A stretch of DNA of 64,000 bases from a virus (IMGVR_UViG_3300008954_000020:1-64000); one strand, 5' to 3'; positions 19,624 through 63,998 are shown, counted from the stretch's first letter. Notes: a model not told the origin generated them from the letters alone. Made by a program: numbers and translations.

Positions 19624-21504
19624 CTATGAGAAGTTGATTCCACCAACGAATCCGTAAATTGTAGTTCCTGCATCGATTGTCATAAATGATACAATATCCG
19701 TACCAGACGCTGTAAGTGCAGGAGCATTATCTCCTGGCCATTTCACAGATGAATGCCAAGTTGTTGTGTTTGCACCACCGTTTGTAATAATGAGTGTAAC
19801 CGTTCCTGCTTTACCAGATGCGGGAGGATTGGTGAAAGTGAATTCACAGTCCCCGTTTCCAGTTACGGTCTGAACATTACCATTTTCGAAATCAATCGCA
19901 GTATTACCAGTAATAGTTCCGATAGCATTTACAGTTTCAGCATAATCTTTAAGTTCTGGACGAGTTATTTGAAGGTCGGCAAAGTTCGTGCCGGTAGTAG
20001 TTATTGCCTGTCCAGTAACTCCGCCCGCAAGCAAAGAGATTGTATCAGCACCAAAAGTAAGTTTAGTGTGGCCATCCCCTTTATGCGTTAAGTTCTCTGG
20101 TATGTAAACAGTGGGACTATTTAAATCGATTTGCATACCAGCTGTCATATTAATAGATGAATGACTATCCCGAATGTATATTGTGGAATCATTACCGGCA
20201 CTATCAATATCGCCAACTTTAAAGTTTCTATCACCCTCAAAGTCCATAATAGATGCGCCGGCTGAATTTCGAATGTGATAATTACCGCCCATATAGATGT
20301 CATTGCCAAATGTTACACCACCATACAACTGCGATGCTCCTGAAGCAGAAAGTCCAGCGGATAACTGAGGAACAGAAGAGAAAGTTTTAGTTCCTGATAT
20401 AGTTTGATTGCCTGAAGTAACTACAACAGACGAACCTGTTTGTATTCCTACACCATCGGCAAAGGTAATTCCTTCGGCTCCTAATGTTATTCCAGCAGAT
20501 GCTACAACATTACCACCGAATGTTGCGACTGGTGCAACATTAAATGTTTCACCGCCGGCAGATATACCAGACGAATCCATTGTTAGATATTCTGTACCAC
20601 TGACTTTGAAATTGATATTGCCAGCAGTCACGCCCATATAAGTTGAGGCTGCGTGGTCGAGAGATGCCAGTAATACTTCAACCGCTGAGTGTCCTGCATA
20701 TCTGTTAGAACCTATGGGCGTGGTGAATACATTTCCACTTGCGTTGGTGAATGTATTTATCTCATCCAACTTTGGCACATTAGAGCCTAAGGATAAAATA
20801 TATCTTACAGTATTATTTGGAATGCCTGGTGCGTTGACATTTAACATTGCAATAGCGATGTCATCGGATGATATATCAATGCCTTTGATGTCAGTAATCG
20901 AGCCCTGGCCGGAATAGAACGGCGAACCATCGCCTTGCCTAGAAAAATATTCAATCGAAGCCCTACCCTGTGTATTTCCATTAGAGAATTGTAGATAGGA
21001 AGTTCCCGTAATTCCCATTACTACAGGCCCATTGAACGATGCTGTTCCCGCAGCAGAAAGACCAAGAGGAATATCAACTCCAGCGGATGTTCCTACCATG
21101 AATATGGGGCCCGCACTCAGTGTCATTGTACCACTTGTGAAAACAACTTTGGTGTTGGTATCTCCAATGTGGCGGAGTCCACCAGCCATGTATATGGTGC
21201 CATCGACATTGACATTTTCACCAAATGTTGCTGTTGAACCCACATATAATGTACTGTTTCCAGTTATACCACTAGATGCAGAAAGACCAACAACATTCAG
21301 GGTGAGTGCATCATCGATTTGGTCGTGTGTTATATGTCCTGTCAGTCCATTGAAAGACAGAACGCCAGAAAGATCAACGGTATTACCATAAGTATTACCA
21401 CAAAACAAAATTCCATCTGTAGTATTTACTGCGGGTTCGCCCCATGTCAAACCAGTAGGAATGTATCCTGCTGTTGTTCCTCTTTTTAGTCTAATTGTTG
21501 CCAT
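19624..21504 (-). CDS. Tail-fibre-like protein
   Basis: N-terminal IRLKRG...LTWGEPAVN (Mtd-N-like); G/S/T-rich beta repeats; C-terminal VKWPG..APALTASGTDIVSF domain. Confidence 0.75.
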   Translation of the reverse strand: MATIRLKRGTTAGYIPTGLTWGEPAVNTTDGILFCGNTYGNTVDLSGVLSFNGLTGHITHDQIDDALTLNVVGLSASSGITGNSTLYVGSTATFGENVNVDGTIYMAGGLRHIGDTNTKVVFTSGTMTLSAGPIFMVGTSAGVDIPLGLSAAGTASFNGPVVMGITGTSYLQFSNGNTQGRASIEYFSRQGDGSPFYSGQGSITDIKGIDISSDDIAIAMLNVNAPGIPNNTVRYILSLGSNVPKLDEINTFTNASGNVFTTPIGSNRYAGHSAVEVLLASLDHAASTYMGVTAGNINFKVSGTEYLTMDSSGISAGGETFNVAPVATFGGNVVASAGITLGAEGITFADGVGIQTGSSVVVTSGNQTISGTKTFSSVPQLSAGLSASGASQLYGGVTFGNDIYMGGNYHIRNSAGASIMDFEGDRNFKVGDIDSAGNDSTIYIRDSHSSINMTAGMQIDLNSPTVYIPENLTHKGDGHTKLTFGADTISLLAGGVTGQAITTTGTNFADLQITRPELKDYAETVNAIGTITGNTAIDFENGNVQTVTGNGDCEFTFTNPPASGKAGTVTLIITNGGANTTTWHSSVKWPGDNAPALTASGTDIVSFMTIDAGTTIYGFVGGINFS

Positions 21505-21728
21505 TATCTAACCACCTTTAAGTTCTTTTTATCATCTCGCTGTTTTACAGTTATTCGCTTGTCTGTAATCAACATCTTTACCTTTTTGGTTGTTTTGTTT
21601 TTTACCAAAACCTGATTCGATCCCGTCACGGTAAGTATGGGTTCATCATGGTATATAACAACTCTATTTGCAGATGAAGCAAACGAAAGAGTAGGTTCTA
21701 ATTTATTATGAATCACAACTCTATTCAT
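21504..21728 (-). CDS. Hypothetical beta-rich protein
   Basis: Internal repeat NRVVIH/NRVVIYH; coupled to both neighbours. Confidence 0.5.
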   Translation of the reverse strand: MNRVVIHNKLEPTLSFASSANRVVIYHDEPILTVTGSNQVLVKNKTTKKVKMLITDKRITVKQRDDKKNLKVVR

Positions 21729-22180
21729 TTAGTAATCTCCGATTGAATCTTAAATTCTCCCTCAACCAATCTAGTAATATCATCTACTCCAGAACCCAAA
21801 TCTTTAATTAATTCCAAATCATATCTGTGTTCTCCAGATAGTGCATTTGATAATGCTCCAGCATCGGCAGAAATATAAATTCCACCAGTGGTTCCTACCA
21901 CTCCAGTAGTACCCGCATTAAGTACGATTCCGCCTGTAGCGGCCACACCCGTTGTTCCTGATACATAATATCCAGTAGAACCACCACCCGTTACGCTCGA
22001 AAATGCTGTGCATCCTGCAAAACTTAAAATAATATTTGAACTAGTGGCAGATGGACGGACTTGCATCTGTGCATTATATGGTGCTAAATCGATAGCAGTT
22101 CCACCCGATGTTTGATATTCTAGGTAGAGAGTCCACTTTGTTCCCTGTTCGGCATTGATGTTATACTTTCCTGCTGGCAT
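21725..22180 (-). CDS. Fibre-attachment/BppU-like beta-sandwich protein
   Basis: AGKYNINAEQG...IDL..YNAQMQVR...YDLEL...RLVEG pattern, with a G/T-rich insertion. Confidence 0.6.
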   Translation of the reverse strand: MPAGKYNINAEQGTKWTLYLEYQTSGGTAIDLAPYNAQMQVRPSATSSNIILSFAGCTAFSSVTGGGSTGYYVSGTTGVAATGGIVLNAGTTGVVGTTGGIYISADAGALSNALSGEHRYDLELIKDLGSGVDDITRLVEGEFKIQSEITK

Positions 22181-22196: not shown

Positions 22197-22203
22197 TATT
22201 TAT
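22197..22203 (-). promoter_or_regulatory. Late promoter core ATAAATA
   Basis: Directly upstream of the GGAGG SD of the fibre module. Confidence 0.6.
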
Positions 22204-23414
22204 CGTTTTACTTTCTTTCTCTTTTTGAAAGTTCTGGGCTTTTTGGTTTGTTCTACGGATAAAGACATTTCTTGTTGTCTTTTTTGCCTCATAGCAGTCA
22301 TTTTTTCTTTATGTTGTTTATTGGCTGCTTCATATTGTTCTAAGTTTTTACGAAGTCGTTCCTCATATCCATCGGGGAGTTTCATTGACAATAACTTTCT
22401 GGTATGTCGCAATCCTTCATCAAATTCATGAACATAAAATGCTGTAGCAGAAAGTTCATCTAAAACCATGAAGTCGTAAACATCTTTATTTACAAACAAA
22501 ATATCCCATTCAGGAAATTTAATACTCGAAGCTATCTTTGCATACAAATATGCAAGTCTAGGTTGTTCTTTCATGCGAAGATATCTAGACAATTCGTGGA
22601 GTGATTCTGCTCGAATTGGCCGGAAATTCCATGCATTTGTCATGGCCATTACAACTTCTTCCATTGGTTTTTCCAACAACATGGTACACAATCCTATTCG
22701 ATAAAGAGAAAAGTATGTCTCTTCTTCCCATCCGCCCATTGCTGCTCTCTTTTTATATGATTCAATTGCTTTCTCATATTGATGTGAATCAAAATATGAC
22801 TGGGCCAAATAAAACTGATATCTAGAATTATTGGGTTCTTCCTTTAGGGCCTCTTCCAACATGATAGCATCTTTTGTGTATTTTTCAACGGGGGTTTGTC
22901 CCACATTTCTTGCACCCAAAGTTCTGGCCTCTACAGTCCAATCTCCAAATAGTTTTTGTAGTTGGGGTGGTCGGTTTTCTTTGAGCCGAGGGAATTCGTG
23001 TAATACACCCTCATACATCCAACTTCCATCATTCTTGAATGTTTGAATTCTCCACCATTCAAGATTTCCTCTTTTTAATCTAACTTCATAACCTTCTTGA
23101 TTCATGTCATTTGGCCATTTTAAATCACCAACAACCTTATCATCTGCATCAATCATAAAGATATAATCTGTTTTGCCGTTACAAGCATCAAGTGCTAGGC
23201 TTCTGTTGTGACTGAAGTTAACCCATTCGTGTTCTAGAAGTTCGCCAGGAATTCCCCTTTCTTCAAAGAAGTCTTTAATGATTTCTTTGGTGTTGTCGGT
23301 TGAACCTGTATCACAAATGCACCAGTAATCGATGTGGTCTGCAACCGATTCTAAACATTCATGGATGATATGGGACTCATCTTTCACTATCATTGATAAA
23401 CATATTGTACTCAT
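22200..23414 (-). CDS. GT2 glycosyltransferase with C-terminal TPR repeats
   Basis: CLSMIVKDE, DTGSTD, FSHNR, IDADD, GVLHE; TPR-like RYQFYLAQSY and YFSLYRIG helices. Confidence 0.88.
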   Translation of the reverse strand: MSTICLSMIVKDESHIIHECLESVADHIDYWCICDTGSTDNTKEIIKDFFEERGIPGELLEHEWVNFSHNRSLALDACNGKTDYIFMIDADDKVVGDLKWPNDMNQEGYEVRLKRGNLEWWRIQTFKNDGSWMYEGVLHEFPRLKENRPPQLQKLFGDWTVEARTLGARNVGQTPVEKYTKDAIMLEEALKEEPNNSRYQFYLAQSYFDSHQYEKAIESYKKRAAMGGWEEETYFSLYRIGLCTMLLEKPMEEVVMAMTNAWNFRPIRAESLHELSRYLRMKEQPRLAYLYAKIASSIKFPEWDILFVNKDVYDFMVLDELSATAFYVHEFDEGLRHTRKLLSMKLPDGYEERLRKNLEQYEAANKQHKEKMTAMRQKRQQEMSLSVEQTKKPRTFKKRKKVKR

Positions 23415-24310
23415 AATAATTCCTTTTGTTGGTTAATCCAGTCTTCTAATTCCACTTTTGGTTTCCATAATAAAAGATTCTTTGCTTTATTTATGTCAGA
23501 TAAACTGTTCTCTATTTCGGTCGGGCGGGGTTCGATAAGTCGTTGATTGTCTGAAATCATATCAGCGATTTCCTTTATAGAATAAGATGTTCCTGTACCA
23601 ACATTAATAATTTCTCCCGATTTAATTTCTTGTTTAAATGCAGCAATCATGTTTGCTTCAACAACATCTGACACATGAATAAAATCTCTTCGTTGTGTGC
23701 CATCAGGAACAATAGTCAATGGTTCATGGTTTTTCTTTTGGTCTAAAAACTTTCCAATGACTGGAACATATGGGCCACGGATAGGTTGCCGTGCTCCATA
23801 TACATTGAAGTATCGAAATATTACAGTTTCAAGTCCATACACGGACGAATACATTTTGCATAGTTCTTCTCCTGCAACCTTGGTAACTGCATACGGGTTC
23901 AAACAATCATTCTGCATATCTTCTGTGTTTGGAATATTATTTAATCCATATGCGGCCGCAGTTGATGACATTATAATTCGCTTTACTCCATTTTCTCTTG
24001 CGGCTTGAAGAATATTACATGTTCCTAATATATTGGTTTGAACTGCAAGTTGTGGATTTCCTATTGTAGATTGTATTTTTGATTCTGCAGCAAGGTGAAA
24101 CACAACATCAATATTTTCGAATGAATTTTTTATCCATCTATATTTTGCAATGTCCAAGTTTTTATATTCTGCATTTGGATTTTTGTAATATTCTTCATGA
24201 GAATCTGATGATTCGTTATCGATGACTAAAACCTTATGTCCTTCATCAATCAAGGCATCCACAATATGCGACCCGATAAATCCTGCACCGCCTGTTACTA
24301 AAAATTTCAC
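23411..24310 (-). CDS. NAD-dependent NDP-sugar epimerase (GalE-like)
   Basis: TGGAGFIG, YAVTK, RYFNVYG, RDFIHVSD. Confidence 0.9.
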   Translation of the reverse strand: MKFLVTGGAGFIGSHIVDALIDEGHKVLVIDNESSDSHEEYYKNPNAEYKNLDIAKYRWIKNSFENIDVVFHLAAESKIQSTIGNPQLAVQTNILGTCNILQAARENGVKRIIMSSTAAAYGLNNIPNTEDMQNDCLNPYAVTKVAGEELCKMYSSVYGLETVIFRYFNVYGARQPIRGPYVPVIGKFLDQKKNHEPLTIVPDGTQRRDFIHVSDVVEANMIAAFKQEIKSGEIINVGTGTSYSIKEIADMISDNQRLIEPRPTEIENSLSDINKAKNLLLWKPKVELEDWINQQKELL

Positions 24311-24337
24311 TATAATGTTTCCTTTGTCACGAATTTT

Positions 24338-25456
24338 TCAATATTTATTGATAGATTCTATTATATGATATTTTTCATTATCAGCCAACCACCAACCAAC
24401 AGGAATATTTATCATGTGTTTGGTGAACTCATCTACACCCGACAACGAGTATCGGTCAAATTCTTTAAATACAGAATAGGTATCATTCCTTACATGAACG
24501 GAGTCACAGGCAATATCGTACTTATTCATATGTGCCTTAAATTCTTCGATGTCATCTACCAACAAAGAATATATCCATGAGGATGTTTCTGCCCATTCGG
24601 GTCTATCTAGTATCCTTACTTTGTCGTTTGAAATGTTTTCATCATAGAACTTGCAATTGCCTTTGTGAGCTTGGACAATGCCATCGATATATTTTAATTG
24701 TTCTAACCCGATGACAGCATTTATATTATTCATGTGAAACTTATATCCACATTCGAGGATATCTTGTTCCCATTTTGGGCCTTGGTATTTTCTATCAAGA
24801 CCAAACCATCTTAATTTTTTTCCTCTTTCGTATTGCGATTCATCTTTACAATACAAAGCACCACCATCTACTGTTGTCAAGTGCTTGATTGCCTGAAACG
24901 AAAAACAACCATAGTCGCCCACAGTTCCCACAGGTTTACCTTTATACTTTGCACCTATAGCATGAGCAGCATCTTCAATTACTGGAATGTGTTCATCATA
25001 CCATACAGGATAATTCATTTCTTGTACGGTTCTGTCGAAATTCATTAAGGCGTCAACATCAAATGGTTGTCCTGCCCAATGAACACCAACAATTGCTTTA
25101 GTTTTATCGGTGATTCTATTAGCAACATCCTTGGGGCAAATGTTTCCTGTTCTTGGGTCAATATCTGCCCAAACAATCTTCGCACCCCTATGAATTATAG
25201 GTTCATTAGTTGCCATACAAGTCATGGGAGATGATATTACTTCATCGCCAGGCTGAACATCTGCTAGATGATACGCAAGAGATAAAGAAGAAGTTCCGCT
25301 GTTTGTTAATAAAACTGTTTGAGAATCTATAAATTTTTGAAACTCTGATTCAAATCTATCAGAATATTCTCCTTCAGTAATAAATCCACCTTCGAATACT
25401 TCTTCAATTTTTTGACCGATACCTTTTGGGTGGTGAATTTTAAATAATGATATCAT
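24338..25456 (-). CDS. DegT/DnrJ PLP-dependent sugar aminotransferase
   Basis: NSGT, EDAAHA, SFQAIKHLTTVDGG, GYKFHM. Confidence 0.92.
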   Translation of the reverse strand: MISLFKIHHPKGIGQKIEEVFEGGFITEGEYSDRFESEFQKFIDSQTVLLTNSGTSSLSLAYHLADVQPGDEVISSPMTCMATNEPIIHRGAKIVWADIDPRTGNICPKDVANRITDKTKAIVGVHWAGQPFDVDALMNFDRTVQEMNYPVWYDEHIPVIEDAAHAIGAKYKGKPVGTVGDYGCFSFQAIKHLTTVDGGALYCKDESQYERGKKLRWFGLDRKYQGPKWEQDILECGYKFHMNNINAVIGLEQLKYIDGIVQAHKGNCKFYDENISNDKVRILDRPEWAETSSWIYSLLVDDIEEFKAHMNKYDIACDSVHVRNDTYSVFKEFDRYSLSGVDEFTKHMINIPVGWWLADNEKYHIIESINKY

Positions 25457-26448
25457 AAGGTTTCCAACCATTCAGGATGTTCTAAAGTCCATTGTATAGT
25501 ATTACGAAAAGATTCTTCAAAGTTTACAGGCAATTCCCAACCCATAGATTTCATCTTCTCTCCACTTAAACTATATCTAAGATCATGGCCGGGACGGTCA
25601 CTATGAAAATCTACCATTTCATATTTTAAAGGTTTTCCAATTATATCAGCAATTAATTTTGCCAATTCTAAATTGTCTACTTCTTTCTCACCAACTACAT
25701 TGTACTTTTCTCCCACTTCTCCCTTTTCAAGAAGGAACAAAACAGCGGCAGCAATATTACGAGCATGAATATAGAAACGACTACCTGCTCTTTTCTTATC
25801 TGGATATGAATGAATCATTACTGTTTCGTCATTCAGAACCTTTTTGATTACAAGCGGAATGTACTTTTCTACATGTTGTCTTTCACCGAAGGCATTCATG
25901 ACATTAATACTCATAAGAGGAATCTTATATGTGTTTTCGTATGCAACACAAATCTGTTCTGCGGCTGACTTACTTGCAGAATAAGGATTTGTTGGTTTGT
26001 GTCTATCCCACTCACCAAACGCAAAATCATCTGGAGCAGAACCATATACTTCATCCGTGCTAAAGTAGAAAAACATTTCAAGATTCGGTAGGGATTTAGC
26101 ATACTCTAACATCTCTACTGTGCCGTCAATATTATTCCTGAAAAATTCTCTAGGTTGACTTATACTATTGTCAACATGAGACTCAGCAGCCATATGAACA
26201 ATAACATCAACATCACCAAGTTCTTTTCTCAATCCTTCTGTCATCGGTAATGTAACATCATTACAGAATACTTTAAGTCTTGGATTGTCCAGTGCAGGAA
26301 TAGAACGAAGTCTTTCTAATCCCATACTAGCATAACTTAGTTTATCAATAACGACAATATCCCAATCCGTATTTATTAGTAAATGTTCTACCACATGATG
26401 ACCAATGAATCCACATCCGCCTGTCACTATTACTTTTTTCTTTTTCAT
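25453..26448 (-). CDS. rmlB: NDP-glucose 4,6-dehydratase (RmlB-like)
   Basis: TGGCGFIG, AAESHVDNS, STDEVYG, YSASK, DRPGHDLRY. Confidence 0.9.
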   Translation of the reverse strand: MKKKKVIVTGGCGFIGHHVVEHLLINTDWDIVVIDKLSYASMGLERLRSIPALDNPRLKVFCNDVTLPMTEGLRKELGDVDVIVHMAAESHVDNSISQPREFFRNNIDGTVEMLEYAKSLPNLEMFFYFSTDEVYGSAPDDFAFGEWDRHKPTNPYSASKSAAEQICVAYENTYKIPLMSINVMNAFGERQHVEKYIPLVIKKVLNDETVMIHSYPDKKRAGSRFYIHARNIAAAVLFLLEKGEVGEKYNVVGEKEVDNLELAKLIADIIGKPLKYEMVDFHSDRPGHDLRYSLSGEKMKSMGWELPVNFEESFRNTIQWTLEHPEWLETL

Positions 26449-26463
26449 AACATATTCTCCTTC

Positions 26464-27291
26464 TTAACAATATCCATAGTAATCCTTATGGGCAACATCA
26501 CTCGTTGCATTCAAAAATTCATACGCTTCATCGAAATCAACCCCGAAGAAATTTCCGCCCGCATGGTGCAACCTAGTAGGGAATCCCACTTCTCCAAAAA
26601 AGATTCCGTGACGGCCATGCCTGTACCTCTCTTCATCTGGCGCAAGCGTAAACTTACCTATTAGGGATTCTATCTTCTCAAGATTTTCATATTTCATAAC
26701 ATACGGGTCTTCACACCACCAATAATTGTGATGCAATTGCGTCTGACATGTCTCTTTGTTGCGTGGTGTTTCATATTCCACCCATCTGTCGGGTTTTCGG
26801 CCTAGAGGGAAAGTCTTCTTCCCAATTTTTCTAAACTTTTCAGGAGATGCTTTAAACCATTCATCGTGCCACATTGAACCAACGAATAAACAACCTTCAT
26901 CAAAATGATGTTTTATGTCATCGATGTATGTTGGTTTTGCAAACACAAAATCATCTTCCCATGTTCCAAAATACTCACTGACTATGGATTTCTTTTGGAG
27001 CAAATGTTTGTAGACATTCCACATTGATTTCACTGTCCCACCACTATTGGGTTGGGGAAAGACTACCACATCCAGTATATCATCTTGCACTTCCATTATC
27101 TGATTCACTGATTTCATCAACATCATCTCATCTTCGTCACACATCAAAGAAATAACAAGAAGATTCTTGTCATATTCCTTGTCGGTCAAATCAATTGATT
27201 TTACTTTATCAGCATGTTTCCATAGATTTTCGGGCCTATCGTTACCATGCCAATAACACACATTATGAATGTAGTAATACTTGGTGTTCAT
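26464..27291 (-). CDS. Hypothetical protein, probable divergent GT-A glycosyltransferase
   Basis: PNSGGT and WEDD (DxD-like) motifs; lies within the glycan locus. Confidence 0.45.
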   Translation of the reverse strand: MNTKYYYIHNVCYWHGNDRPENLWKHADKVKSIDLTDKEYDKNLLVISLMCDEDEMMLMKSVNQIMEVQDDILDVVVFPQPNSGGTVKSMWNVYKHLLQKKSIVSEYFGTWEDDFVFAKPTYIDDIKHHFDEGCLFVGSMWHDEWFKASPEKFRKIGKKTFPLGRKPDRWVEYETPRNKETCQTQLHHNYWWCEDPYVMKYENLEKIESLIGKFTLAPDEERYRHGRHGIFFGEVGFPTRLHHAGGNFFGVDFDEAYEFLNATSDVAHKDYYGYC

Positions 27292-27707
27292 TTTTTAAGT
27301 TTATTTCTAATTTCGGTTGTTGATGTTTGTTTCGAATATGGAAAATATATGATTTTTACTCCATAATTTTTTAATGTGTTTTCATACTCTATCCATTTGG
27401 ATGATTCATACCAATCATCCCCAACAAATAATATATCATATTTAATTTTTTCGTATGCCTTTACTTTGTCTATTTCATTCTGAGGAATAACAGTATCGAC
27501 ACACCGTATATTACGAACTATTTCAACACGATGCTCATATGGTATAATACACTTTTCCTTTTTGTGTGAAACTATATCATCTATCGTAACGGCCACAATT
27601 AAATGGTCACACATCGATTTTGCATTTCTTAATATATTTAAATGTCCCACATGGAACATATCAAATGAACCACAAGTATATCCTATTATTTTCTTATCTG
27701 GATTCAT
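27288..27707 (-). CDS. tagD: Glycerol-3-phosphate cytidylyltransferase-like (TagD)
   Basis: GSFDMFHVGH (HxGH), VGDDW, TSTTEIR. Confidence 0.88.
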   Translation of the reverse strand: MNPDKKIIGYTCGSFDMFHVGHLNILRNAKSMCDHLIVAVTIDDIVSHKKEKCIIPYEHRVEIVRNIRCVDTVIPQNEIDKVKAYEKIKYDILFVGDDWYESSKWIEYENTLKNYGVKIIYFPYSKQTSTTEIRNKLKK

Positions 27708-30145: not shown

Positions 30146-30151
30146 TGTCTC

Positions 30152-36012: not shown

Positions 36013-36411
36013 TTATTTGCGGCCGATATGGTATTTAGGTACTAACTCCCATTCATCTTTTTCTTTGTATGAGATGATTTTGATTTGGTTTAATGGTGCA
36101 ATTGGTTCTTCGCAACATTCGGGGTCTACTATTTCTAATAGTTCCCATTCTTCTAAAAGGCCAACTATCGCATTTCGTCTAGCGATATCATTGTCGGCTA
36201 TATCGGTTGGTAAACCATCGAGGGCAAACAGTTCTTTAAAATGAACGATATAATATTTGCCCTTTTTGTGCAGGATGTGGCAACTTTGATATAATTTTTG
36301 TTCTTTTCGGGAGGAAACGCCAATGCGTGTTAAGGTTTCTCTCACCTTTAAAAAATCTTCATCTTGCGCTAATTCTATTTCTACTAAGTCATCTATTGAT
36401 ATTGTACTCAT
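36013..36411 (-). CDS. regA: Translational repressor RegA
   Basis: FLKVRETLTRIG, LYQSCHILHK, HFKELF. Confidence 0.95.
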   Translation of the reverse strand: MSTISIDDLVEIELAQDEDFLKVRETLTRIGVSSRKEQKLYQSCHILHKKGKYYIVHFKELFALDGLPTDIADNDIARRNAIVGLLEEWELLEIVDPECCEEPIAPLNQIKIISYKEKDEWELVPKYHIGRK

Positions 36412-55028: not shown

Positions 55029-56969
55029 TTAGCCTGTTAACTCTGAGAAGTCCACGCCAGTACGGGTTGCAATGAAGTTAAGTTGAATGAAGTTAATTGA
55101 ACGAGCAGGTTTCACATAAATGTCTGCAACAAACTCATTTCTATCTATAACCTCTCCAGTGTTGTTTGATTCGTCACACACAACTTTGAAGTCGGTGATA
55201 CCTCTTCGTCCTTGAATATCACGGAGGAAGGGTTCAACCATATTTCGGAATTGTGCTCGAGTGAATGAATCATTAAGTTCAAAGAGTTGGAATTTAGCAG
55301 CAGTTGCGATTGCCTTCTCAAGAACAATGAACAATCTACGAACATTAATTCGGTCGAATGCACTTGGTTTTACCTGAAGTGTTTTATCACCGAAGAGTAC
55401 AACACCTTGGCCGGGGAAGGAAACAACTGGGTTGACTCCTTCTTTATAAAGTGCATCACGATGTGCTTTTCTTGGATTGAATGAAAGTCGTGTGATTCTC
55501 TTGATTTGTCCTCTGTTGAATCCAGCAGGGGAGAACCAAGGGTCAGCAACTTCATCAGTCCTTACACAAAGTCCTGCAACATCACCATTAAGGGGAACAT
55601 TGCGGAAAACATCGTTGTAACGGTCGAATTGATATTTGTAACCACTATCAAGAACAGCATACGAAGAACTTCTGTTCAGTGTCGTGTTTCGATATGTGAT
55701 AACATTATCTTTTTGTGTGGTAGTGTTCAGAACATCAACAACATCTGATGACTGTGGTGAAAGGAATGCAACGCAATCTTTTCTCTTGTCGCAAACTTCG
55801 TCAATTAAGAATTGACCATTTGCGGCATTACCAGGCCCACCGAGTAGAAGTGAAACATCGACTGTTTCTGCATCTTTGAATAGGTCGTAACCTTGGTCAA
55901 CATCAAGAATATCATTGTTAATTGCAGCTGCGCCGTTGTCATCCACACCACCAGCAAGTGCTGAATAGTCTGCTGTGTCATTCGTTCCGAACACACTTCC
56001 ACCTGTCAGAGCAGAACCCCATGCGGTGTTGGTACTACCAACATGTCCACCCCAGTAGATGTACTTAGAAGCCTTGTTAAGTTTTTCTTTGTAGTAGTTG
56101 ACTCCACCTTGGTCTGTTCGTGCATTTGATGCCTTAGACATAAATGGCCACGCTTCAAGAACGGTTCCTTCTGTACCAGACCACTTACCATCTGCATCAT
56201 AGACAACTACATGAAGTTCATCGAGTGAAGTTGCATTGTTGTTCTTTGTTGACCAATCGGATGTGCCGGGAGCAGAGTCTACATTATTGTAGAATCCCCA
56301 CTTGCGAGTTACAGTTGCGCCAGCAGTTAGTGCTTTTGTTAGTGCAGGAGTGATAGTTGCGGTCGCTCCATGTGCAGCAGACGAAAGAGCAGTAACTTTT
56401 ACGGCATCATGTTCGCCTGTTGTAGCATCAACAATTACTAGAGCATCTCCAACCGACAGCGAGCCGGTCGAACCCAACCCAAGGTGGAGTGATGTTGCAC
56501 CGACTGATGCAGCTGCACATAAACCTTGAACACCCGAAAGTGAACTTGAGAATGCAGCAGAACTGTCACAGGTTGAAACCTTTAGACTGTTTCCTAGAAC
56601 GCCGGGATATTTAGCAACCCAATTGTTCGAAGTAAAGTTACTGATACTATCGTAGTGTTCATCGTTGTTGATTAATAGTCCTGCGGCATCACCAGCATTC
56701 TTTGCTGCTGCACCACATACACGGACTACTTGTAGATTATTTCCATAGGCAAGGAAATTTGCAGCGGTGAAGAAATATTCGTATGTGTCATCATTTGGAT
56801 CACCAAAGAGATCACGGAGATTTGCTTCACTATCCACAAGTATTCGTTGTTTGGCTGGCCCCCATTGGAATGCACCAGCAATACCGCCACTTGTAGTGGC
56901 CACTGCTGGGATTATGGTGGTCAGGTCAATTTCTTTTACATTTACGCCTGGGCTGACTTGGAATCCCAT
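55029..56969 (-). CDS. gp18: Contractile tail sheath (gp18)
   Basis: SPGV..KEID, WFSPAG.NRG, FDRINVRRLF, KPARSINFI. Confidence 0.96.
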   Translation of the reverse strand: MGFQVSPGVNVKEIDLTTIIPAVATTSGGIAGAFQWGPAKQRILVDSEANLRDLFGDPNDDTYEYFFTAANFLAYGNNLQVVRVCGAAAKNAGDAAGLLINNDEHYDSISNFTSNNWVAKYPGVLGNSLKVSTCDSSAAFSSSLSGVQGLCAAASVGATSLHLGLGSTGSLSVGDALVIVDATTGEHDAVKVTALSSAAHGATATITPALTKALTAGATVTRKWGFYNNVDSAPGTSDWSTKNNNATSLDELHVVVYDADGKWSGTEGTVLEAWPFMSKASNARTDQGGVNYYKEKLNKASKYIYWGGHVGSTNTAWGSALTGGSVFGTNDTADYSALAGGVDDNGAAAINNDILDVDQGYDLFKDAETVDVSLLLGGPGNAANGQFLIDEVCDKRKDCVAFLSPQSSDVVDVLNTTTQKDNVITYRNTTLNRSSSYAVLDSGYKYQFDRYNDVFRNVPLNGDVAGLCVRTDEVADPWFSPAGFNRGQIKRITRLSFNPRKAHRDALYKEGVNPVVSFPGQGVVLFGDKTLQVKPSAFDRINVRRLFIVLEKAIATAAKFQLFELNDSFTRAQFRNMVEPFLRDIQGRRGITDFKVVCDESNNTGEVIDRNEFVADIYVKPARSINFIQLNFIATRTGVDFSELTG

Positions 56970-58703: not shown

Positions 58704-59151
58704 CAACTACCTCTGCATCAATCATGTTGTGTTCTATTTGTTTAACATTTTGTTTTACCATATCTTGCAATTCTTTTGTCGAACCAACAAATAAGGTATT
58801 ATTTGTGATGGTTCCTGCAAGTGGTGAATCGGGGTCTTGTTTTTTAATATCCTTCATCTTTTTATGAAGGTCAATTAAATCTTTGTTTGCATCGGAAACA
58901 CTTTTGATGAGTTGGGAAACAACTTCATATGCTCGTGGGGATTCTCCCTCCGATGCCACCCGAAGAATGCCATCGATTGCAACTTGTCCAGAGTCAATAA
59001 TGTGATGAAGATTATCTCGAACATCGGTGTAATCCTTATTAAGTTCAGGTTCATAGGCTTTAATTGCCTTTGGTTCTGACTGTTGGATTTCTTTTTCTTT
59101 ATGTTCGATATTTAATGCTTCTGAAAGTTTTTCGTCTACGCTTTTACTCAT
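58687..59151 (-). CDS. gp16: Terminase small subunit (gp16)
   Basis: SPRAYEV, NNTLFVGSTKELQ. Confidence 0.9.
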   Translation of the reverse strand: MSKSVDEKLSEALNIEHKEKEIQQSEPKAIKAYEPELNKDYTDVRDNLHHIIDSGQVAIDGILRVASEGESPRAYEVVSQLIKSVSDANKDLIDLHKKMKDIKKQDPDSPLAGTITNNTLFVGSTKELQDMVKQNVKQIEHNMIDAEVVDGKQE

Positions 59152-59981
59152 GCTAATGTGTTACCTGCTGAATCAATTCCGTCTGTTCCCGTCATACCAT
59201 GTACACGGGTTGTTATTGTATAATCATAATCACTACCATATGTAGCGCCTGCTGGATTGGGTGTAATATCAATTCGTGATAGAGCACCCGTAAGTCCACT
59301 GAAAGTAGAATCTAGAGTATTGTCATATTGAACAGTGATAGCCGTCTTGATAACACCAGATGTCTTGACTGGACTGTACATGTAAGACCTTGCAACAAAT
59401 TCAAGATTCCACATAACAGACCGAATATCATCAAATGCTCCCTCATAATCGGATTCTACACTTGTACTTTGTAAAACAATTGGAACATCTACTTTTTGAT
59501 GAAGGTCATCTACGAGATTTAAATTAACTGTAAATTCTGGTGTAAAGTATGGTGCAATCTGTTCTAATATCTGTAGTCCATCATCCACAGTTTCAGTCAT
59601 AATATACAGACCAAAGTTTAAATTGTATGGAACAGAAGAATAATTTGATTTTACTTGGGCAGTAGTGAGTGATGAATTATAGGACTTGAGCCGATTAAGT
59701 GTATTAATTTTTCTAGCAGTATCATACTCAACTGATGATAATTCAAATCCGATTCGAGGAAGCGTCATACTCACATCTGTTTTATCTGGATTGGATAAAC
59801 GGTAGTCTTCCCTTAATCTACGAATGAACTTTGCTTGGTTTCCATAGGATATTGGAACCTTAATTTGTTTGATTTCAACTCCGGCTGAATTTTTACGAGA
59901 TACCTTGATGTTGTTGAATAATGATCCAAAAGCAATTACAGTATTACGAATACTCTTGTTGTAAAAATGGTCGCCAAACAT
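59148..59981 (-). CDS. gp15: Tail sheath stabiliser/completion protein (gp15)
   Basis: FGSLFN, VPISY, LPRIGFE, QILEQI.PYF.P. Confidence 0.92.
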   Translation of the reverse strand: MFGDHFYNKSIRNTVIAFGSLFNNIKVSRKNSAGVEIKQIKVPISYGNQAKFIRRLREDYRLSNPDKTDVSMTLPRIGFELSSVEYDTARKINTLNRLKSYNSSLTTAQVKSNYSSVPYNLNFGLYIMTETVDDGLQILEQIAPYFTPEFTVNLNLVDDLHQKVDVPIVLQSTSVESDYEGAFDDIRSVMWNLEFVARSYMYSPVKTSGVIKTAITVQYDNTLDSTFSGLTGALSRIDITPNPAGATYGSDYDYTITTRVHGMTGTDGIDSAGNTLA

Positions 59982-60638: not shown

Positions 60639-63600
60639 CTACCTCAATACTTGAGCAGTGATATATCCACCCTTGTTGAACTTTGCTGAATGATTCGTTG
60701 ATCTCAGTCTGAAACGCTTTGGTTGAGTAGTATTTCGGCGGTATATGCCTTCGAATTTACATTGTTGCATATTTGCTTCAGTTGTATCCTTGAACCATCT
60801 ATTCGACATCTCGATAGGCCTGCCCAGTTTTACAGTAAGCTCATCAGACCATCTGTTTCCTGCCGATTCATGAGCGTATTGCAGTTGACGAATAGTGAAA
60901 TGTCCAACAGCGCCCATGTAATCGTTTTGTGTATCGTGATCTTTCTGGTAGTTGACGTCCCCAACACCACCGAAGCCACCGTTCACATAGATCCCATTGT
61001 ATGTGGCCATGCAAGGAATTCCGTAATTACTCATATTGCTGAAATCAACCACTCTCAATTGCCTACTGCCATGTGCATAGTCATGATTGTTGCACCAGAA
61101 GAGTCCAGAATATCGATTGGCGCCAAAGTCTGATGTATGGACACCGTTGTCGTAGTAAGTGAAACCAGCATACCACCCCTTAGTGGTGTTCAGGCCAAGA
61201 CCGTTCCAATCAATTCGTATATCATTTGCGCCGAGATCGATTACATCTTCCAAATCGACATCAAGCGTTGTGCCACTCCTGCTGACTCGTTCTTCCACAT
61301 AAAAGACATCCGCACCAGCACGCCAATTTCCACCCTTACCACATTTAATTCCTTTGAAAGTGCCTACGGTTTGGCCATTGTAATTTGTAGCGCTGGAACC
61401 AAGGTCGAGATACCTGATATTATCCAAACGGACATCAACATCACCAAGGCCACTATCGGGATAACCGTCAAGGAGAATTAGATTGTCCTTGATCTCGCAA
61501 TAGGGGCCCCAGCCACTCGCAACCCCACTGGCATATCGCAAGACCAGGCCGCTGCCGGAAAAATATATTGCGCCGGGATTGGTGGCAGGGTCTTTCGAAC
61601 GAATTGTGTCATTTGATCCTTGCCCAATTGTAAGGGCTTCACAAGTTACCATTTGCGTTGCCCATAAATTCTCTGCGGCTAAGTTTCCGTAACAATTTAC
61701 TTTATACCCAGCATCTGGATTTCCGCCGATACCAACATTACCGATGCCGTCAATGATCATTCTGGTTTTTGCGCCCGCATCATAACTATTTGTAGTAGCA
61801 AAGGCCATTTTACTGCCGTATCCAACATCCGTAGCTACATAAATCCCCGCACTAGCCCTATTGTCCGAATCTTGAGCACCGAATGTAATTGCACCGCCTC
61901 GGCCCGCAAGGTCGGTTGAACCTCTTACATCCAAGTGCAACATGCCTTTGATGTTGCCGATGTTTGTGACGAAATGGTTCGAACCATCAGTCCAACTATT
62001 CGCACCGTCATCGGGGTCTTCTGACCAGAGGTGAAGAAGACATCCGGCCGCATTGTGAGTCGTTCCGTGTCCCGGCCCCATTGCAATCTGTCCATCAGCT
62101 CCGACAGACATATGAACGACATCTTCGTTTTCACTTGCGACTCTGAAATATCCATCAGTTCGCACTGCAATTTTGTCTTCACTCGCTAGAATTAGCGATC
62201 TATTAGTACCATCAGTGAACTCCACAAAACCATAATCATATATTCCTGCGCCATCAAAGTTCATTGATATGTGGGGAGCCGTGCCAGAGGGCTTTATCAT
62301 AAGTGGCGCATCAGGAGCATCAGTTGTACCAATGGATACACCTTGATTTTCTTCTGTACAAAGAAAAGTATCCCCCGAAATTCGACATTCACCATTAACA
62401 TCTAATAGATAATCAGCATATCGTTTATTGATTCCTACATAACCAGTTAATTTCTGAATAGAGATGTCACTAGTCGCATGAGGATTCTCACCACTTCGTG
62501 CAGTGATATACATATACTCCATATTTTCACTGCCAGACCCATAGGCACCCAACACTCCCAACGAATCCAATACGCCTTGATCCCCCACAAATACACCATT
62601 ACTATTCGTCCCTGCAATAGCAAATCCACGGGCCCACCCGCCAGTCGTGTAAGATGGTGCAGTTACAATACCATAATCACTTATCATGGATATAGAAGAG
62701 AAGCCCTCGACTCTAATGGGCCCTTGAAAGGTTTGGGCGGATGTTTCTGTCAGATATGCAATTCCAGACGGTAAGAGATCACTGTCCCAATCGGTTGATC
62801 CATCAGCATTAATTATGGCAATAAGTTGATTTGCTGTTAATTGAGCCGGAGCAGAAGAAGAACCAGCACCAAGACCGAGAATTCGGTTGGGGAAAATATC
62901 TGCCATCATTTCATGAGTAAATGCTTGGGCAGTAAATGCACCACCACCACTAGGAACCATCAAAACATCATTACCAGCAGTTGTGCCTGTGGTAACATCT
63001 GTAATATCGTTTAATACGAGAGATGCAGTAACCGATGACTGTGGAATGAATCCAAATTCTTGGTTTGTGCCATCACCAAATCGAATCATAACATGACCCG
63101 ATGCACCGTGTTGTCCCGACATGAGGTTCATTGCAGAAAGTCCTACTGCACCATCGGCAAGTTCATATGATCGAACCGAACCATCTTCAATTTCTGTATA
63201 ACCAATACCGCCTGTTTTGATTGAAACTGCACCAGAGGAAGTACTAAACATATTGGAATTAAAACTAGCAATACCCTTATTGGAAGTCGTAGCTTCTTCA
63301 CCCGAAAAGCTAACTTTATTGGACGAAACTGTTGTGCTAATCCCATCGGCACCTTCGAATGTTATTGTTTGACCAAGTGATACTGCATCGGTCGTACTGC
63401 CGTCGTATATATTAATTCCATCGTTTGCTATTTTTGCGTTTGTAACTGCATCATCTGGAATTTTTACAGTTGTAACTGCATCGTCTTGAATTTTTGCAGT
63501 TATTACGGAATCTGTTGCAAGTTTAGCAGCAACAACACCAACATCTTTGAGTCGAAGAGCATTACCACTAATTTCAAGTCCTGTACCATCTACATTAACT

Positions 63601-63998
63601 TGAAGGGTGTGGTCACCACCAAGTGTAACACCTGCACCATCCATTAATGCGCCGCCACCAGAAGAATATGTTAGTCCCGAACCCACAGGGGTTGCAAGTG
63701 TGATTCCACCAGCATTGGCCAACATGGCGTTTGTTACTTTTCCAGCGCCAATTGCCACAACACCTGTGTTATTGATAGTAATATCACCACTAATCACTCG
63801 GTTTGTAAAGGAATCATCACCACCATGGCCAATAAACATATGGCCATCGAGAATTGGTAAATTCAAACTCATTTCTTCGAGTCCGGCAATACCAGTTGCA
63901 CCTGTACCAATTTCTGTGACATTCAGCCACGCCCATGTCTTGTTATCTCCAACACCTGTTCCCGTAATGCCAAGAATATTACTAGTACCAACACCCGG
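60639..63998 (-). CDS. Long fibre-like structural protein, 5'-truncated by the window
   Basis: The frame stays open to the window end. Contains 10-aa DAVTxxKIxD repeats and GxVGI repeats, with a distinct C-terminal domain. Confidence 0.7.
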   Translation of the reverse strand, partial: PGVGTSNILGITGTGVGDNKTWAWLNVTEIGTGATGIAGLEEMSLNLPILDGHMFIGHGGDDSFTNRVISGDITINNTGVVAIGAGKVTNAMLANAGGITLATPVGSGLTYSSGGGALMDGAGVTLGGDHTLQVNVDGTGLEISGNALRLKDVGVVAAKLATDSVITAKIQDDAVTTVKIPDDAVTNAKIANDGINIYDGSTTDAVSLGQTITFEGADGISTTVSSNKVSFSGEEATTSNKGIASFNSNMFSTSSGAVSIKTGGIGYTEIEDGSVRSYELADGAVGLSAMNLMSGQHGASGHVMIRFGDGTNQEFGFIPQSSVTASLVLNDITDVTTGTTAGNDVLMVPSGGGAFTAQAFTHEMMADIFPNRILGLGAGSSSAPAQLTANQLIAIINADGSTDWDSDLLPSGIAYLTETSAQTFQGPIRVEGFSSISMISDYGIVTAPSYTTGGWARGFAIAGTNSNGVFVGDQGVLDSLGVLGAYGSGSENMEYMYITARSGENPHATSDISIQKLTGYVGINKRYADYLLDVNGECRISGDTFLCTEENQGVSIGTTDAPDAPLMIKPSGTAPHISMNFDGAGIYDYGFVEFTDGTNRSLILASEDKIAVRTDGYFRVASENEDVVHMSVGADGQIAMGPGHGTTHNAAGCLLHLWSEDPDDGANSWTDGSNHFVTNIGNIKGMLHLDVRGSTDLAGRGGAITFGAQDSDNRASAGIYVATDVGYGSKMAFATTNSYDAGAKTRMIIDGIGNVGIGGNPDAGYKVNCYGNLAAENLWATQMVTCEALTIGQGSNDTIRSKDPATNPGAIYFSGSGLVLRYASGVASGWGPYCEIKDNLILLDGYPDSGLGDVDVRLDNIRYLDLGSSATNYNGQTVGTFKGIKCGKGGNWRAGADVFYVEERVSRSGTTLDVDLEDVIDLGANDIRIDWNGLGLNTTKGWYAGFTYYDNGVHTSDFGANRYSGLFWCNNHDYAHGSRQLRVVDFSNMSNYGIPCMATYNGIYVNGGFGGVGDVNYQKDHDTQNDYMGAVGHFTIRQLQYAHESAGNRWSDELTVKLGRPIEMSNRWFKDTTEANMQQCKFEGIYRRNTTQPKRFRLRSTNHSAKFNKGGYITAQVLR

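What the first reader, a model, noticed from the sequence alone, without database searches (positions are those of the whole stretch)
19624..63998. Recurring G-x-T / G-x-S-A motif in virion proteins: a putative glycosylation sequon
Seen: G-x-T clusters in variable extensions of conserved structural proteins. The last ~50 aa of gp15 carry GLTG, GATY, GMTG and GNTL. The gp3 N-extension has GGTG and GVTY, gp14 has GGITI, the gp18 insertion has GATS, GSTG, GATA and GATV, and gp23 has GVTA. The 151-aa adaptor has six (GGTA, GCTA, GSTG, GTTG x3). The 626-aa fibre has about 19 by eye plus GLSA x3, GISA, GTSA and GHSA. The long fibre has GITL, GVTL, GATG and GITG. Replication enzymes show only scattered hits such as Walker A. 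The fibres are G/T-rich, so part of this is compositional; the gp15, gp3 and gp18 cases are harder to explain that way. Inference: selection has placed acceptor Thr/Ser sites on exposed surfaces for the phage's own transferase.
Basis: partly seen in the sequence, partly recalled or inferred. Interest (0 to 1): 0.8.

Follow-up and report, generated by a model that had tools for sequence, protein, structure and literature searches.

The report
Threonine sugar-tag motif on phage virion
An uncultured marine T4-like phage carries far too many Gly-x-Thr-(Gly/Ala) sites on the outward-facing parts of its particle proteins. It also encodes a full-length relative of the bacterial enzyme that puts sugars on exactly that motif, so its virion is probably sugar-coated, though no chemistry has been done.

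Summary
Taken one protein at a time, or for the conserved proteins alone, the excess is weak, and T4 fibres show the same plain G-x-T ratio. Pooled, it is real.

- **In the window:** the 10 virion proteins have 62 G-x-T against 42.7 expected, and 24 G-x-T-[GA] against 8.7.
- **Whole contig:** in the 27 structural proteins, G.TG is the most over-represented of 4,282 gapped patterns.
- **Replication:** six other phage contigs with a GT2-TPR homologue show G-x-T-[GA] at 234 against 80.8 (z 20.7). Reverse, shifted and serine controls are flat.
- **Negative controls:** nine T4-like genomes without the enzyme show no G-x-T excess.
- **Location:** the excess sits in outward-facing parts (outer sheath-protein region, gp15 tail, gp7/gp8-like proteins, fibres). 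It is absent from tube, portal and hub proteins.
- **Enzyme:** the GT2-TPR (22200-23414) aligns end to end with C. difficile SgtA, which O-GlcNAcylates Thr in G-x-T-G repeats of BclA3.

**Caveats:** all enzyme-bearing phages form one clade, so the correlation rests on one origin.

The scan has noted the same phenomenon on at least eight other genomes. I read it as a new variant of a known kind.

The parts
22200..23414 (-). GT2-TPR protein glycosyltransferase (404 aa), the candidate initiating O-glycosyltransferase
   Evidence: Pfam Glycos_transf_2 plus TPR. The DADD metal-binding motif is invariant in 25 homologues. The best PDB matches of its profile are GmaR (E 6e-17) and SunS (1e-10). It aligns end to end with C. 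difficile SgtA: BLASTP E 1e-24 over residues 1-349 vs 1-343, and hhalign probability 99.3%.
23411..24310 (-). SDR sugar-nucleotide epimerase/dehydratase (299 aa). Its stop overlaps the GT2-TPR start. It probably supplies the donor sugar.
   Evidence: Pfam Epimerase, E 8e-59. GalE-like by NCBIfam but below the cut-off. It is the commonest neighbour of GT2-TPR, with 90 homologues in 80 loci, and is 53-56% identical next to the GT2-TPR in G008, G010 and G011.
24338..35997 (-). Variable glycan island: DegT aminotransferase, dTDP-glucose 4,6-dehydratase-like SDR, cytidylyltransferase, GT1-like, LicD, methyltransferases (FkbM), GT11, SDR, GT25, DXD glycosyltransferase. These are presumed to elaborate the glycan.
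   Evidence: Pfam and NCBIfam. Most of these genes are absent from the other GT2-TPR-bearing contigs.
21725..22180 (-). 151-aa virion 'adaptor' protein, starting 19 nt after the GT2-TPR stop, with six G-x-T-[GA] sites. It is the best candidate dedicated substrate.
   Evidence: 6 G.[ST][GA] vs 1.2 expected. Homologues occur in 50 of 80 GT2-TPR loci, and 28 start less than 100 bp downstream on the same strand. Each has 3-8 G-x-T, pooled 276 vs 110.8. Atlas neighbours are viral, with weak LtfC and BppU_N leads.
19624..21504 (-). 626-aa tail fibre with 19 G-x-T and 6 G-x-S-A
   Evidence: PHROG tail fibre C-terminal domain. G.T 19 vs 11.3. G.[ST][GA] 14 vs 4.4, p<0.001.
59151..59306 (-). gp15 (tail sheath stabiliser) C-terminal tail, residues 226-277, with four G-x-T sites
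   Evidence: The PHROG match ends at residue 225. In 13 relatives (68-91% identical in the tail) the G and T of all four sites are invariant while x varies. None of the six other Thr of the tail is invariant. gp15 in enzyme-bearing phages has 13 four-residue motifs vs 2.0 expected, against 0 vs 1.9 in phages without the enzyme. The tails of G006, G008 and G011 look unrelated in sequence yet are also motif-rich.
56295..56522 (-). gp18 sheath protein variable region (residues about 150-225) with GATS, GSTG, GATA and GATV
   Evidence: The sites map to T4-equivalent residues 166-213. Enzyme-bearing phages have 4-9 G-x-T in T4-equivalent residues 87-213, and phages without the enzyme have 0-2. In the AF2 model the Thr lie in coil or at the first residues of a strand after a turn.
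60639..63998 (-). Long fibre (runs on to 64880 in the contig; 1413 aa)
   Evidence: PHROG tail fibre. G.T 23 in the full protein. G.[ST][GA] 10 vs 7.2, not significant on its own.
48474..48656 (-). gp3 N-terminal extension (residues 1-61) with GGTG and GVTY; weak case
   Evidence: The PHROG match starts at residue 62. In a 74%-identical relative the second site is kept (GKTV) and the first is lost. The gp3 family shows no difference between phages with and without the enzyme.
22197..22203 (-). ATAAATA late-promoter-like heptamer overlapping the GT2-TPR stop, 17 nt before the adaptor start. A second copy lies at 24342-24348, 32 nt before the epimerase start.
   Evidence: The same heptamer precedes gp18 and gp22. 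The heptamer is not more frequent than chance in the window (18 vs 24.8), so this is weak evidence.

Best explanation
The phage O-glycosylates its own virion.

Proposed mechanism:
- A cytoplasmic SgtA/GmaR-type enzyme (a GT-A catalytic domain followed by a TPR domain, 22200-23414) transfers a first sugar from a nucleotide sugar to the Thr hydroxyl of G-x-T-[G/A] sites. The adjacent SDR epimerase probably supplies or converts that nucleotide sugar.
- Preferred x residues are I, A and V. Preferred residues after the Thr are G, A and F.
- The sites lie in turns, loops and tails on the outward-facing parts of virion proteins: the 151-aa protein encoded immediately downstream, the fibres, the gp15 tail, the variable region of the sheath protein, and gp7/gp8-like baseplate proteins.
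- The variable 12-kb island upstream (further GTs, methyltransferases, LicD/cytidylyltransferase, amino-sugar enzymes) extends and caps the glycan.
- Selection has multiplied the acceptor motif on exposed surfaces, so the particle carries a dense glycan coat.

Shown: the motif excess, its specificity, its location, its clade distribution, the homology of the enzyme and the gene adjacency.

Inferred: that the enzyme acts on these sites, the identity of the sugar, and the biological role (shielding, stability or adsorption).
For: 1. **Real and specific motif.** G.T ranks first of 397 patterns and G.TG first of 4,282 in the 27 structural proteins. It survives 20-aa block shuffles.
2. **Replication on other data.** In six other GT2-TPR-bearing contigs G.T is 639 vs 416.5 (z 12.4) and G.T[GA] is 234 vs 80.8 (z 20.7). 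Control ratios are T.G 0.92, GT 1.01, G..T 0.94, G.S 1.00 and the reverse motif 0.83. G.T ranks first in 5 of those 6 and third in the other. It ranks 9-246 in eight negatives.
3. **Negatives.** Nine T4-like genomes lack the excess. These are T4, HTVC008M, Melnitz-1, S-H38 and five IMG/VR contigs.
4. **Ortholog-matched comparison (enzyme-bearing vs not).** gp18 is 1.73 vs 1.09, gp15 2.31 vs 0.98, gp7-like 2.30 vs 1.14 and gp8-like 1.55 vs 0.93. There is no difference in gp19, gp5, gp6, gp13, gp14 or gp20. Non-structural proteins are 1.12 vs 1.20.
5. **Constraint.** All four gp15-tail Thr in G-x-T are invariant and 0 of 6 other Thr are (hypergeometric 1/210).
6. **Enzyme.** It is homologous over its full length to SgtA. 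SgtA puts O-GlcNAc on Thr of GPT repeats of BclA3 in vitro and is encoded next to bclA3 (PMC7157674). The BclA3 fetched here consists of G-[PAVINT]-T-G triplets. The best PDB match is GmaR, the flagellin O-GlcNAc transferase with a TPR domain (PMC9638930).
7. **Enzyme beside motif-rich genes.** The adaptor lies within 100 bp in 28 loci. Collagen-like (GNT)n proteins lie nearby in 34 of 80 loci. In two unrelated phages a G-x-T collagen-like protein lies within 4-6 kb of the GT2-TPR homologue: Tunturi_5 (79 vs 30.4) and LR756502 (55 vs 26.8).
Against: - No glycan chemistry exists for this or any member of the clade, and all members are uncultured contigs.
- All seven GT2-TPR-bearing T4-like genomes fall in one clade of the gp20+gp23 tree. 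Enzyme and motif excess therefore share a single origin, and clade cannot be separated from enzyme.
- The positives were chosen by the presence of the enzyme.
- Two of four remote phages with a GT2-TPR homologue (LR756501, LR745206) have no motif-rich neighbour.
- Outside its one fibre, Tunturi_5 shows no proteome-wide excess.
- Some negatives show a mild excess of the four-residue motif (G002 1.76, S-H38 1.66).
- Identity to SgtA is only 24%.
- G-x-T at a turn followed by a strand is also a plausible purely structural element.
- Surface exposure was inferred from alignment to T4 and from recalled domain boundaries. It was not computed from coordinates.
Confidence: 0.6

Rival explanations
1. 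The motif is a clade-specific structural habit. G-[IAV]-T-[GA] would be a favoured turn-plus-strand element of the extra beta-rich domains that this clade has added to its outer proteins. It would be inherited once and be unrelated to glycosylation. The GT2-TPR would do something else, or modify only one dedicated substrate.
For: All enzyme-bearing phages are one clade. In the gp18 model the motif Thr lie at turn or strand boundaries. T4 fibres, for which I know of no glycosylation, have a 1.31 G.T ratio. Some negatives have a mild four-residue excess.
Against: - The excess appears in unrelated proteins with no shared flanks and in gp15 tails that look unrelated in sequence.
- It is Thr-specific, with G.S at 1.00, and specific in orientation and spacing. 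A generic turn would tolerate Ser.
- Fibres and outer domains of nine other T4-likes lack it.
- The clade is deep, at about 50-57% identity in portal plus capsid protein, so maintenance needs ongoing selection.
- The motif equals the acceptor of the enzyme's characterised homologue.
Confidence: 0.2
2. The glycan island, including the GT2-TPR, remodels the host cell surface (O-antigen or LPS) during infection to block superinfection. This is the usual reading of glycosyltransferases in the fibre cluster of marine myophages. The virion motif would be coincidental, or only the small adaptor or collagen-like proteins would be glycosylated.
For: The pelagimyophage literature interprets such glycosyltransferases this way (PMC7029224). 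The island holds LPS-type families: GT25, GT11, LicD and DegT. Only the GT2-TPR and one SDR enzyme are conserved across the clade.
Against: The GT2-TPR's characterised relatives (SgtA, GmaR, SunS) all act on proteins or peptides, not lipid-linked glycans. This reading does not explain an excess of the SgtA acceptor motif limited to outward-facing virion proteins of exactly the phages that carry the enzyme.
Confidence: 0.15
3. The excess is chance or composition. G- and T-rich fibres give many G-x-T by themselves, and the small clusters in gp15, gp3 and gp18 are post-hoc selections.
For: Whole-protein shuffles of single proteins and of the seven conserved proteins are not significant. The gp18 sites are not conserved in 47 homologues, and gp18 homologues average 5.2 G-x-T vs 4.7 expected.
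Against: The pooled and replicated statistics reach z 10-20 with local-composition shuffles, the same-composition controls are flat, and the pattern ranks first in unbiased scans.
Confidence: 0.03

Closest known systems
Clostridioides difficile SgtA with the exosporium collagen-like glycoprotein BclA3 (PMC7157674)
   Same: - Same domain plan: an N-terminal GT-A domain with a DxD motif and a C-terminal TPR domain.
- Homology over the full length (BLASTP E 1e-24, hhalign 99.3%).
- The SgtA acceptor is Thr in G-x-T-G triplets (PMC7157674).
- In both cases the enzyme gene sits directly beside a gene rich in that motif.
   Different: - Identity is only 24%.
- SgtA serves one bacterial spore protein with a continuous collagen triple-helix repeat.
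- Here the motif is scattered as single sites over many unrelated phage virion proteins, and the window's own collagen-like protein (5515-6867) has Q or D, not T, in the third position.
- The donor sugar is unknown, and a 12-kb island suggests a larger glycan.
Listeria monocytogenes GmaR, the flagellin O-GlcNAc transferase (PMC9638930; PDB 22ao)
   Same: It is the best solved-structure match of the GT2-TPR profile (E 6e-17). It has a GT domain followed by a TPR domain that is proposed to bind the protein substrate. It acts in the cytoplasm on Ser/Thr of a surface filament protein.
   Different: GmaR is 637 aa and has an extra anti-repressor domain. I know of no reported G-x-T sequon for it. 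Its substrate is a single protein.
SunS/ThuS glycocin S-/O-glycosyltransferases (PDB 7MSN, 7MSP, 7MSK; NCBIfam TIGR04195)
   Same: These are the second-best PDB matches and the only NCBIfam match. They have a GT2 domain and act on a peptide. SunS is encoded by a prophage.
   Different: The match is far below the NCBIfam cut-off (43 vs 350 bits). Those enzymes modify one Cys or Ser of a small bacteriocin precursor.
Mycobacteriophage virion glycosylation (Freeman et al. 2023, known here only through citing papers, e.g. PMC12619734)
   Same: Phage-encoded glycosyltransferases decorate the phage's own structural proteins. It is the only experimentally established case in tailed phages that I found.
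   Different: There the glycans sit on C-terminal extensions of the capsid and tail-tube subunits. Here gp23 and gp19 show no clade-specific excess. The targets are the sheath, neck, baseplate periphery and fibres, and a short sequon is evident. The paper itself was not available to read.

Membership tests
SgtA/GmaR-type GT-A + TPR protein O-glycosyltransferases | N-terminal GT-A (GT2) domain with an acidic DxD metal-binding motif | tested here: met
   Pfam PF00535, E 4e-11. D89-A-D91-D92 is invariant in 25 homologues and aligns with LDADD of SgtA.
SgtA/GmaR-type GT-A + TPR protein O-glycosyltransferases | C-terminal TPR or helical-repeat domain following the GT domain | tested here: met
   Pfam TPR_17, ANAPC3 and TPR_19 at residues 180-223, all weak. 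Designed TPR proteins match profile positions 178-300. The alignment with SgtA continues to residue 349 of 404.
SgtA/GmaR-type GT-A + TPR protein O-glycosyltransferases | Significant full-length sequence homology to a biochemically characterised member | tested here: met
   SgtA: BLASTP E 1e-24, 24% identity over 365 columns; hhalign 99.3%, E 9e-21. GmaR GT domain: E 6e-17.
SgtA/GmaR-type GT-A + TPR protein O-glycosyltransferases | Encoded beside a gene for a surface protein rich in the acceptor motif | tested here: met
   The 151-aa protein with six G-x-T-[GA] starts 19 nt downstream, followed by the fibre. The pairing is conserved in 50 of 80 loci.
SgtA/GmaR-type GT-A + TPR protein O-glycosyltransferases | Transfers a sugar from a UDP-sugar to Thr/Ser of a protein | not testable with these tools
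   Needs an enzyme assay or glycoproteomics.
BclA-type collagen-like glycoprotein substrates | Long uninterrupted G-X-Y repeat with Thr in the Y position | tested here: not met
   In the window the motif occurs as isolated sites. The window's collagen-like protein (5515-6867) has 57 triplets with Y mostly Q or D. Its homologues in clade relatives do carry (GNT)n, as do proteins of Tunturi_5 and LR756502.
Mycobacteriophage-type virion glycosylation | Acceptor sites on C-terminal extensions of the major capsid and tail tube proteins | tested here: not met
   gp23 is 1.46 in enzyme-bearing phages vs 1.67 in those without. gp19 is 1.09 vs 1.10, with 0 four-residue motifs vs 3.6 expected in enzyme-bearing phages.
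Mycobacteriophage-type virion glycosylation | Glycans detected on virion proteins | not testable with these tools
   No isolate and no mass spectrometry.
Phage glycosyltransferases that modify host O-antigen (seroconversion type) | Membrane-embedded or lipid-carrier-dependent transferases acting on LPS | not tested
   No transmembrane prediction was run. The characterised relatives of the GT2-TPR are soluble enzymes that act on proteins.

The most novel reading that the evidence does not exclude
A deep, abundant clade of uncultured aquatic T4-like phages coats the whole outside of its tail, neck and fibres with O-glycans. At least 560 IMG/VR stretches and thousands of metagenomic homologues encode the enzyme.
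- The coat is addressed by a four-residue sequon, G-x-T-[G/A], read by an SgtA-like enzyme.
- A swappable glycan island sets the sugar chemistry.
- This would be the first sequon-directed virion glycosylation system in tailed phages.
- It would also re-interpret the 'LPS genes' in the fibre clusters of marine myophages as virion-decoration genes.
Probability: 0.5. Interest if true: 0.85.

Novelty: new variant of a known kind. Interest (0 to 1): 0.78.

Why it matters
- **A new case of virion glycosylation.** In tailed phages it has been shown experimentally only for mycobacteriophages, and no acceptor sequon is known there.
- **A directly testable prediction.** The motif, the enzyme and the named target proteins are all specified, for a large and environmentally abundant clade of T4-like phages.
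- **A different reading of known gene clusters.** If the prediction holds, the glycosyltransferase clusters that sit among tail-fibre genes of marine myophages would be read differently. They are currently taken to modify the host O-antigen (PMC7029224).
- **Possible uses and consequences.** It would give a simple sequence tag for predicting glycosylated surfaces and a compact enzyme/tag pair for glyco-engineering. It would also bear on how phage particles resist proteases, stick to particles or mucus, and recognise hosts.

Tried and rejected
1. Per-protein and small-set shuffles suggested a compositional by-product, and I held that view at first. It was overturned by the pooled, four-residue and cross-genome tests.
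2. The T4 control shows that the plain G-x-T excess in fibres alone is not diagnostic.
3. The gp18 sites are not positionally conserved in 47 homologues at about 50% identity, so site-by-site conservation is not the signal there.
4. The AlphaFold model of gp15 from 13 sequences was unusable (mean pLDDT 41). The gp18 model (pLDDT 67) gave only secondary structure. Exposure could not be computed because coordinates are not returned.
5. A single-sequence scan of IMG/VR for the GT2-TPR found nothing. The alignment-based scan worked.
7. I looked for motif avoidance in cytoplasmic proteins of enzyme-bearing phages and found none (1.12 vs 1.20).
8. Megaphages LR756501 and LR745206 have no motif-rich neighbour.
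9. The late promoter TATAAATA is not found before the GT2-TPR. The shorter ATAAATA is present but is not enriched in the window.
10. The phyletic profile of clade-specific genes is partly circular, because the positives were chosen by the enzyme.
11. Freeman et al. 2023 is not in the library.


Full report
**What the window is.** All long genes lie on the minus strand and form a T4-like late and replication layout.
- Long fibre 60639-63998; it continues to 64880 in the 102.6-kb contig.
- gp14 59981-60631, gp15 59148-59981, terminase 57042-59151.
- gp18 55029-56969, gp19 54472-55011, portal 52905-54434.
- Protease, scaffold, and gp23 48752-50227; gp3 48000-48656.
- uvsY and uvsW, then replication genes 36013-45502.
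- A 14-kb glycan locus, 22200-35997.
- A 151-aa protein 21725-22180 and a 626-aa fibre 19624-21504.

The nearest cultured relatives by DNA are HTVC008M, Melnitz and cyanomyophages, at about 74-80% identity over short stretches.

Simple tests first looked unimpressive.
- With whole-protein shuffles, only the 626-aa fibre (19 vs 11.3) and the 151-aa protein (6 vs 2.6) were nominally enriched.
- The seven conserved virion proteins gave 20 vs 15.1, p 0.13. The fibres gave 47 vs 34.8.
- T4, for which I know of no virion glycosylation, shows the same ratio in its fibres, 62 vs 47.2.

At that point I held the motif to be mostly compositional.

**What changed the reading.** I extended the test to the four-residue form noted for the overlapping window (e1-5964127) and to all 27 structural proteins of the contig.
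- G.[ST][GA] is 126 vs 50.3 (z 11), and 126 vs 55.4 with 20-aa block shuffles that preserve local composition.
- G.TG is 54 vs 16.9.
- Non-structural proteins give 19 vs 16.1, and T4 structural proteins 29 vs 26.
- Nine separate proteins are individually significant.
- The sites share no extended flanks, so this is not a repeated domain.
- An unbiased scan ranks G.T first of 397 a.b patterns. G.TG, G.TA and G.SA rank 1st, 2nd and 5th of 4,282 a.bc patterns.
- Within the finding's own coordinates, the ten virion proteins pooled give G.T 62 vs 42.7 (z 3.3) and G.T[GA] 24 vs 8.7 (z 5.3). The reverse control T.G is not significant.

**Relatives with and without the enzyme.** The GT2-TPR family is very large.
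- It has at least 5,999 homologues at E<=1e-10.
- A profile scan of IMG/VR finds 560 stretches that encode a relative.

I fetched whole contigs or genomes of both kinds.
- **With the enzyme:** six T4-like contigs, G006-G011.
- **Without the enzyme:** nine T4-like genomes. These are T4, HTVC008M, Melnitz-1, S-H38 and IMG/VR contigs G001-G005.

| Measure in homologues of structural proteins | With GT2-TPR (7, including this contig) | Without GT2-TPR (9) |
|---|---|---|
| G.T ratio | 1.39-1.70 | 0.94-1.25 |
| Four-residue motif ratio | 1.40-3.23 | 1.1-1.76 |

- G.T is the top-ranked a.b pattern in five of the six other enzyme-bearing genomes and third in the sixth. It ranks 9 to 246 in eight negatives.
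- Pooled over the six other enzyme-bearing genomes with block shuffles, G.T is 639 vs 416.5 (z 12.4) and G.T[GA] is 234 vs 80.8 (z 20.7).
- The same-composition controls give ratios of T.G 0.92, GT 1.01, G..T 0.94, G.S 1.00 and the reverse motif 0.83.
- The eight negatives give G.T 1.02.
- The consensus is G-[I/A/V]-T-[G/A/F]-[A/G/S]. Of all twenty G.b pairs only G.T is raised.
- Serine counts only as G-x-S-A, mainly in this phage: 22 vs 9.4 here, a ratio of 1.44 in the others, and 1.19 in the negatives.

**Where the excess sits.** Ortholog-matched comparison shows the difference in some families only.

| Family | G.T ratio, with enzyme | G.T ratio, without |
|---|---|---|
| gp18 | 1.73 | 1.09 |
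| gp15 | 2.31 | 0.98 |
| gp7-like | 2.30 | 1.14 |
| gp8-like | 1.55 | 0.93 |

- For gp15 the four-residue motif is 13 vs 2.0 with the enzyme, and 0 vs 1.9 without.
- There is no difference in tube gp19 (0 four-residue motifs vs 3.6 expected), hub gp5, gp6, gp13, gp14, portal gp20, gp3 or gp23.
- Homologues of non-structural proteins are alike in both groups, 1.12 vs 1.20.
- In gp18 the motif Thr map to T4-equivalent residues 87-213, with 4-9 per protein with the enzyme and 0-2 without. From memory of the T4 sheath structure (not tested here), this is the protruding outer domain.
- In an AF2 model (pLDDT 67) these Thr lie in coil or at the start of a strand after a turn.
- In the gp15 tail, 13 relatives keep the G and T of all four sites invariant while x varies. 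None of the six other Thr is invariant (1/210 by hypergeometric count).
- gp15 tails of other enzyme-bearing phages look unrelated in sequence yet are again packed with G-x-[ST].

**The enzyme.**
- The GT2-TPR has a GT2 domain with an invariant DADD motif, followed by TPR repeats.
- Its profile's best solved-structure matches are GmaR, the flagellin O-GlcNAc transferase (E 6e-17), then SunS and a ThuS-like peptide glycosyltransferase. The only NCBIfam match is the SunS family, far below its cut-off.
- The literature gave a closer functional precedent. C. difficile SgtA (GT-A plus TPR, 358 aa) adds the initiating O-GlcNAc to Thr of the GPT collagen-like repeats of BclA3. It is encoded immediately upstream of bclA3 (PMC7157674).
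- I recovered sgtA from a C. difficile genome using the published primer.
- The phage enzyme aligns with SgtA from residue 1 to 349 (BLASTP E 1e-24; hhalign 99.3%).
- The adjacent BclA3 consists of G-[P/A/V/I/N/T]-T-G triplets. That is the motif found scattered on the phage proteins.

**Gene neighbourhood.**
- In 80 GT2-TPR loci the commonest neighbours are the SDR epimerase (90 homologues) and the 151-aa protein (50 loci). Another 34 loci have homologues of the collagen-like protein at 5515-6867.
- In 28 of those 50 loci the 151-aa protein starts less than 100 bp after the enzyme's stop.
- Each 151-aa homologue has 3-8 G-x-T sites.
- In those relatives the collagen-like homologues carry long (GNT)n runs, 1690 vs 604.5.
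- The window's own copy of that collagen-like protein has 57 triplets with Q or D in the third position.
- In two unrelated phages with more distant homologues of the enzyme, a G-x-T collagen-like protein lies 4-6 kb away. These are Tunturi_5 (79 vs 30.4) and LR756502 (55 vs 26.8). Two other megaphages show nothing.

**Main weakness.**
- In a gp20+gp23 tree all seven enzyme-bearing T4-like genomes form one clade (SH-aLRT 85). One gain explains the distribution.
- The co-occurrence of enzyme and motif is therefore one evolutionary event, however deep the clade is (about 50-57% identity).
- The positives were also chosen by the presence of the enzyme, so the phyletic profile is partly circular.
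- No chemistry exists.

**Verdict.** The best explanation is an SgtA-like enzyme that O-glycosylates Thr in G-x-T-[G/A] on outward-facing virion proteins, with the variable island elaborating the glycan (confidence about 0.6). The rivals are a clade-specific structural habit (0.2), an island aimed at the host surface, as the pelagimyophage literature assumes (PMC7029224; 0.15), and chance (0.03). The scan has noted the same phenomenon on at least eight other genomes with the same closest-known system. I reached my results before reading those notes, and they are not independent evidence.

Noticed in passing
window 5515-6867 (-): A 450-aa collagen-like protein with 57 uninterrupted G-X-Y triplets (residues 111-281), with Y mostly Q or D. 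Its homologues beside the GT2-TPR in relatives carry long (GNT)n runs instead.
   Followed up: partly
window 18600-19367 (-): A 255-aa protein that is 30% glycine, with weak PHROG matches to tail fibre assembly and minor tail proteins. It shows no G-x-T excess (7 vs 8.6).
   Followed up: partly
window 36834-37940 (-): A 368-aa protein between the clamp-loader genes and a Cpn10-like gene has a borderline Pfam match to the Druantia protein DruA (E 2e-6, 27.4 bits against a cut-off of 27).
   Followed up: no
window 37937-38230 (-): A phage-encoded Cpn10/GroES-like co-chaperonin (Pfam E 1e-6), presumably the counterpart of T4 gp31.
   Followed up: no
G002 (IMG/VR contig behind L057), structural proteins: In this enzyme-negative relative the most over-represented gapped pattern is G.KG (27 vs 3.0), followed by G.GY. 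This is a different glycine-based repeat in its fibres.
   Followed up: no
L256 (Tunturiibacter phage Tunturi_5) 7391-10809: Four tandem paralogous genes of about 285 aa (ORF30-33) lie between the GT2-TPR homologue and the collagen-like tail fibre ORF29.
   Followed up: no
G007 and G010 (IMG/VR contigs behind L194, L212): These clade members have a short sheath protein (376-379 aa, 28-32% identical over part of its length) that seems to lack the variable outer region. Their portal and capsid proteins are as close to the window's as those of the other relatives.
   Followed up: no
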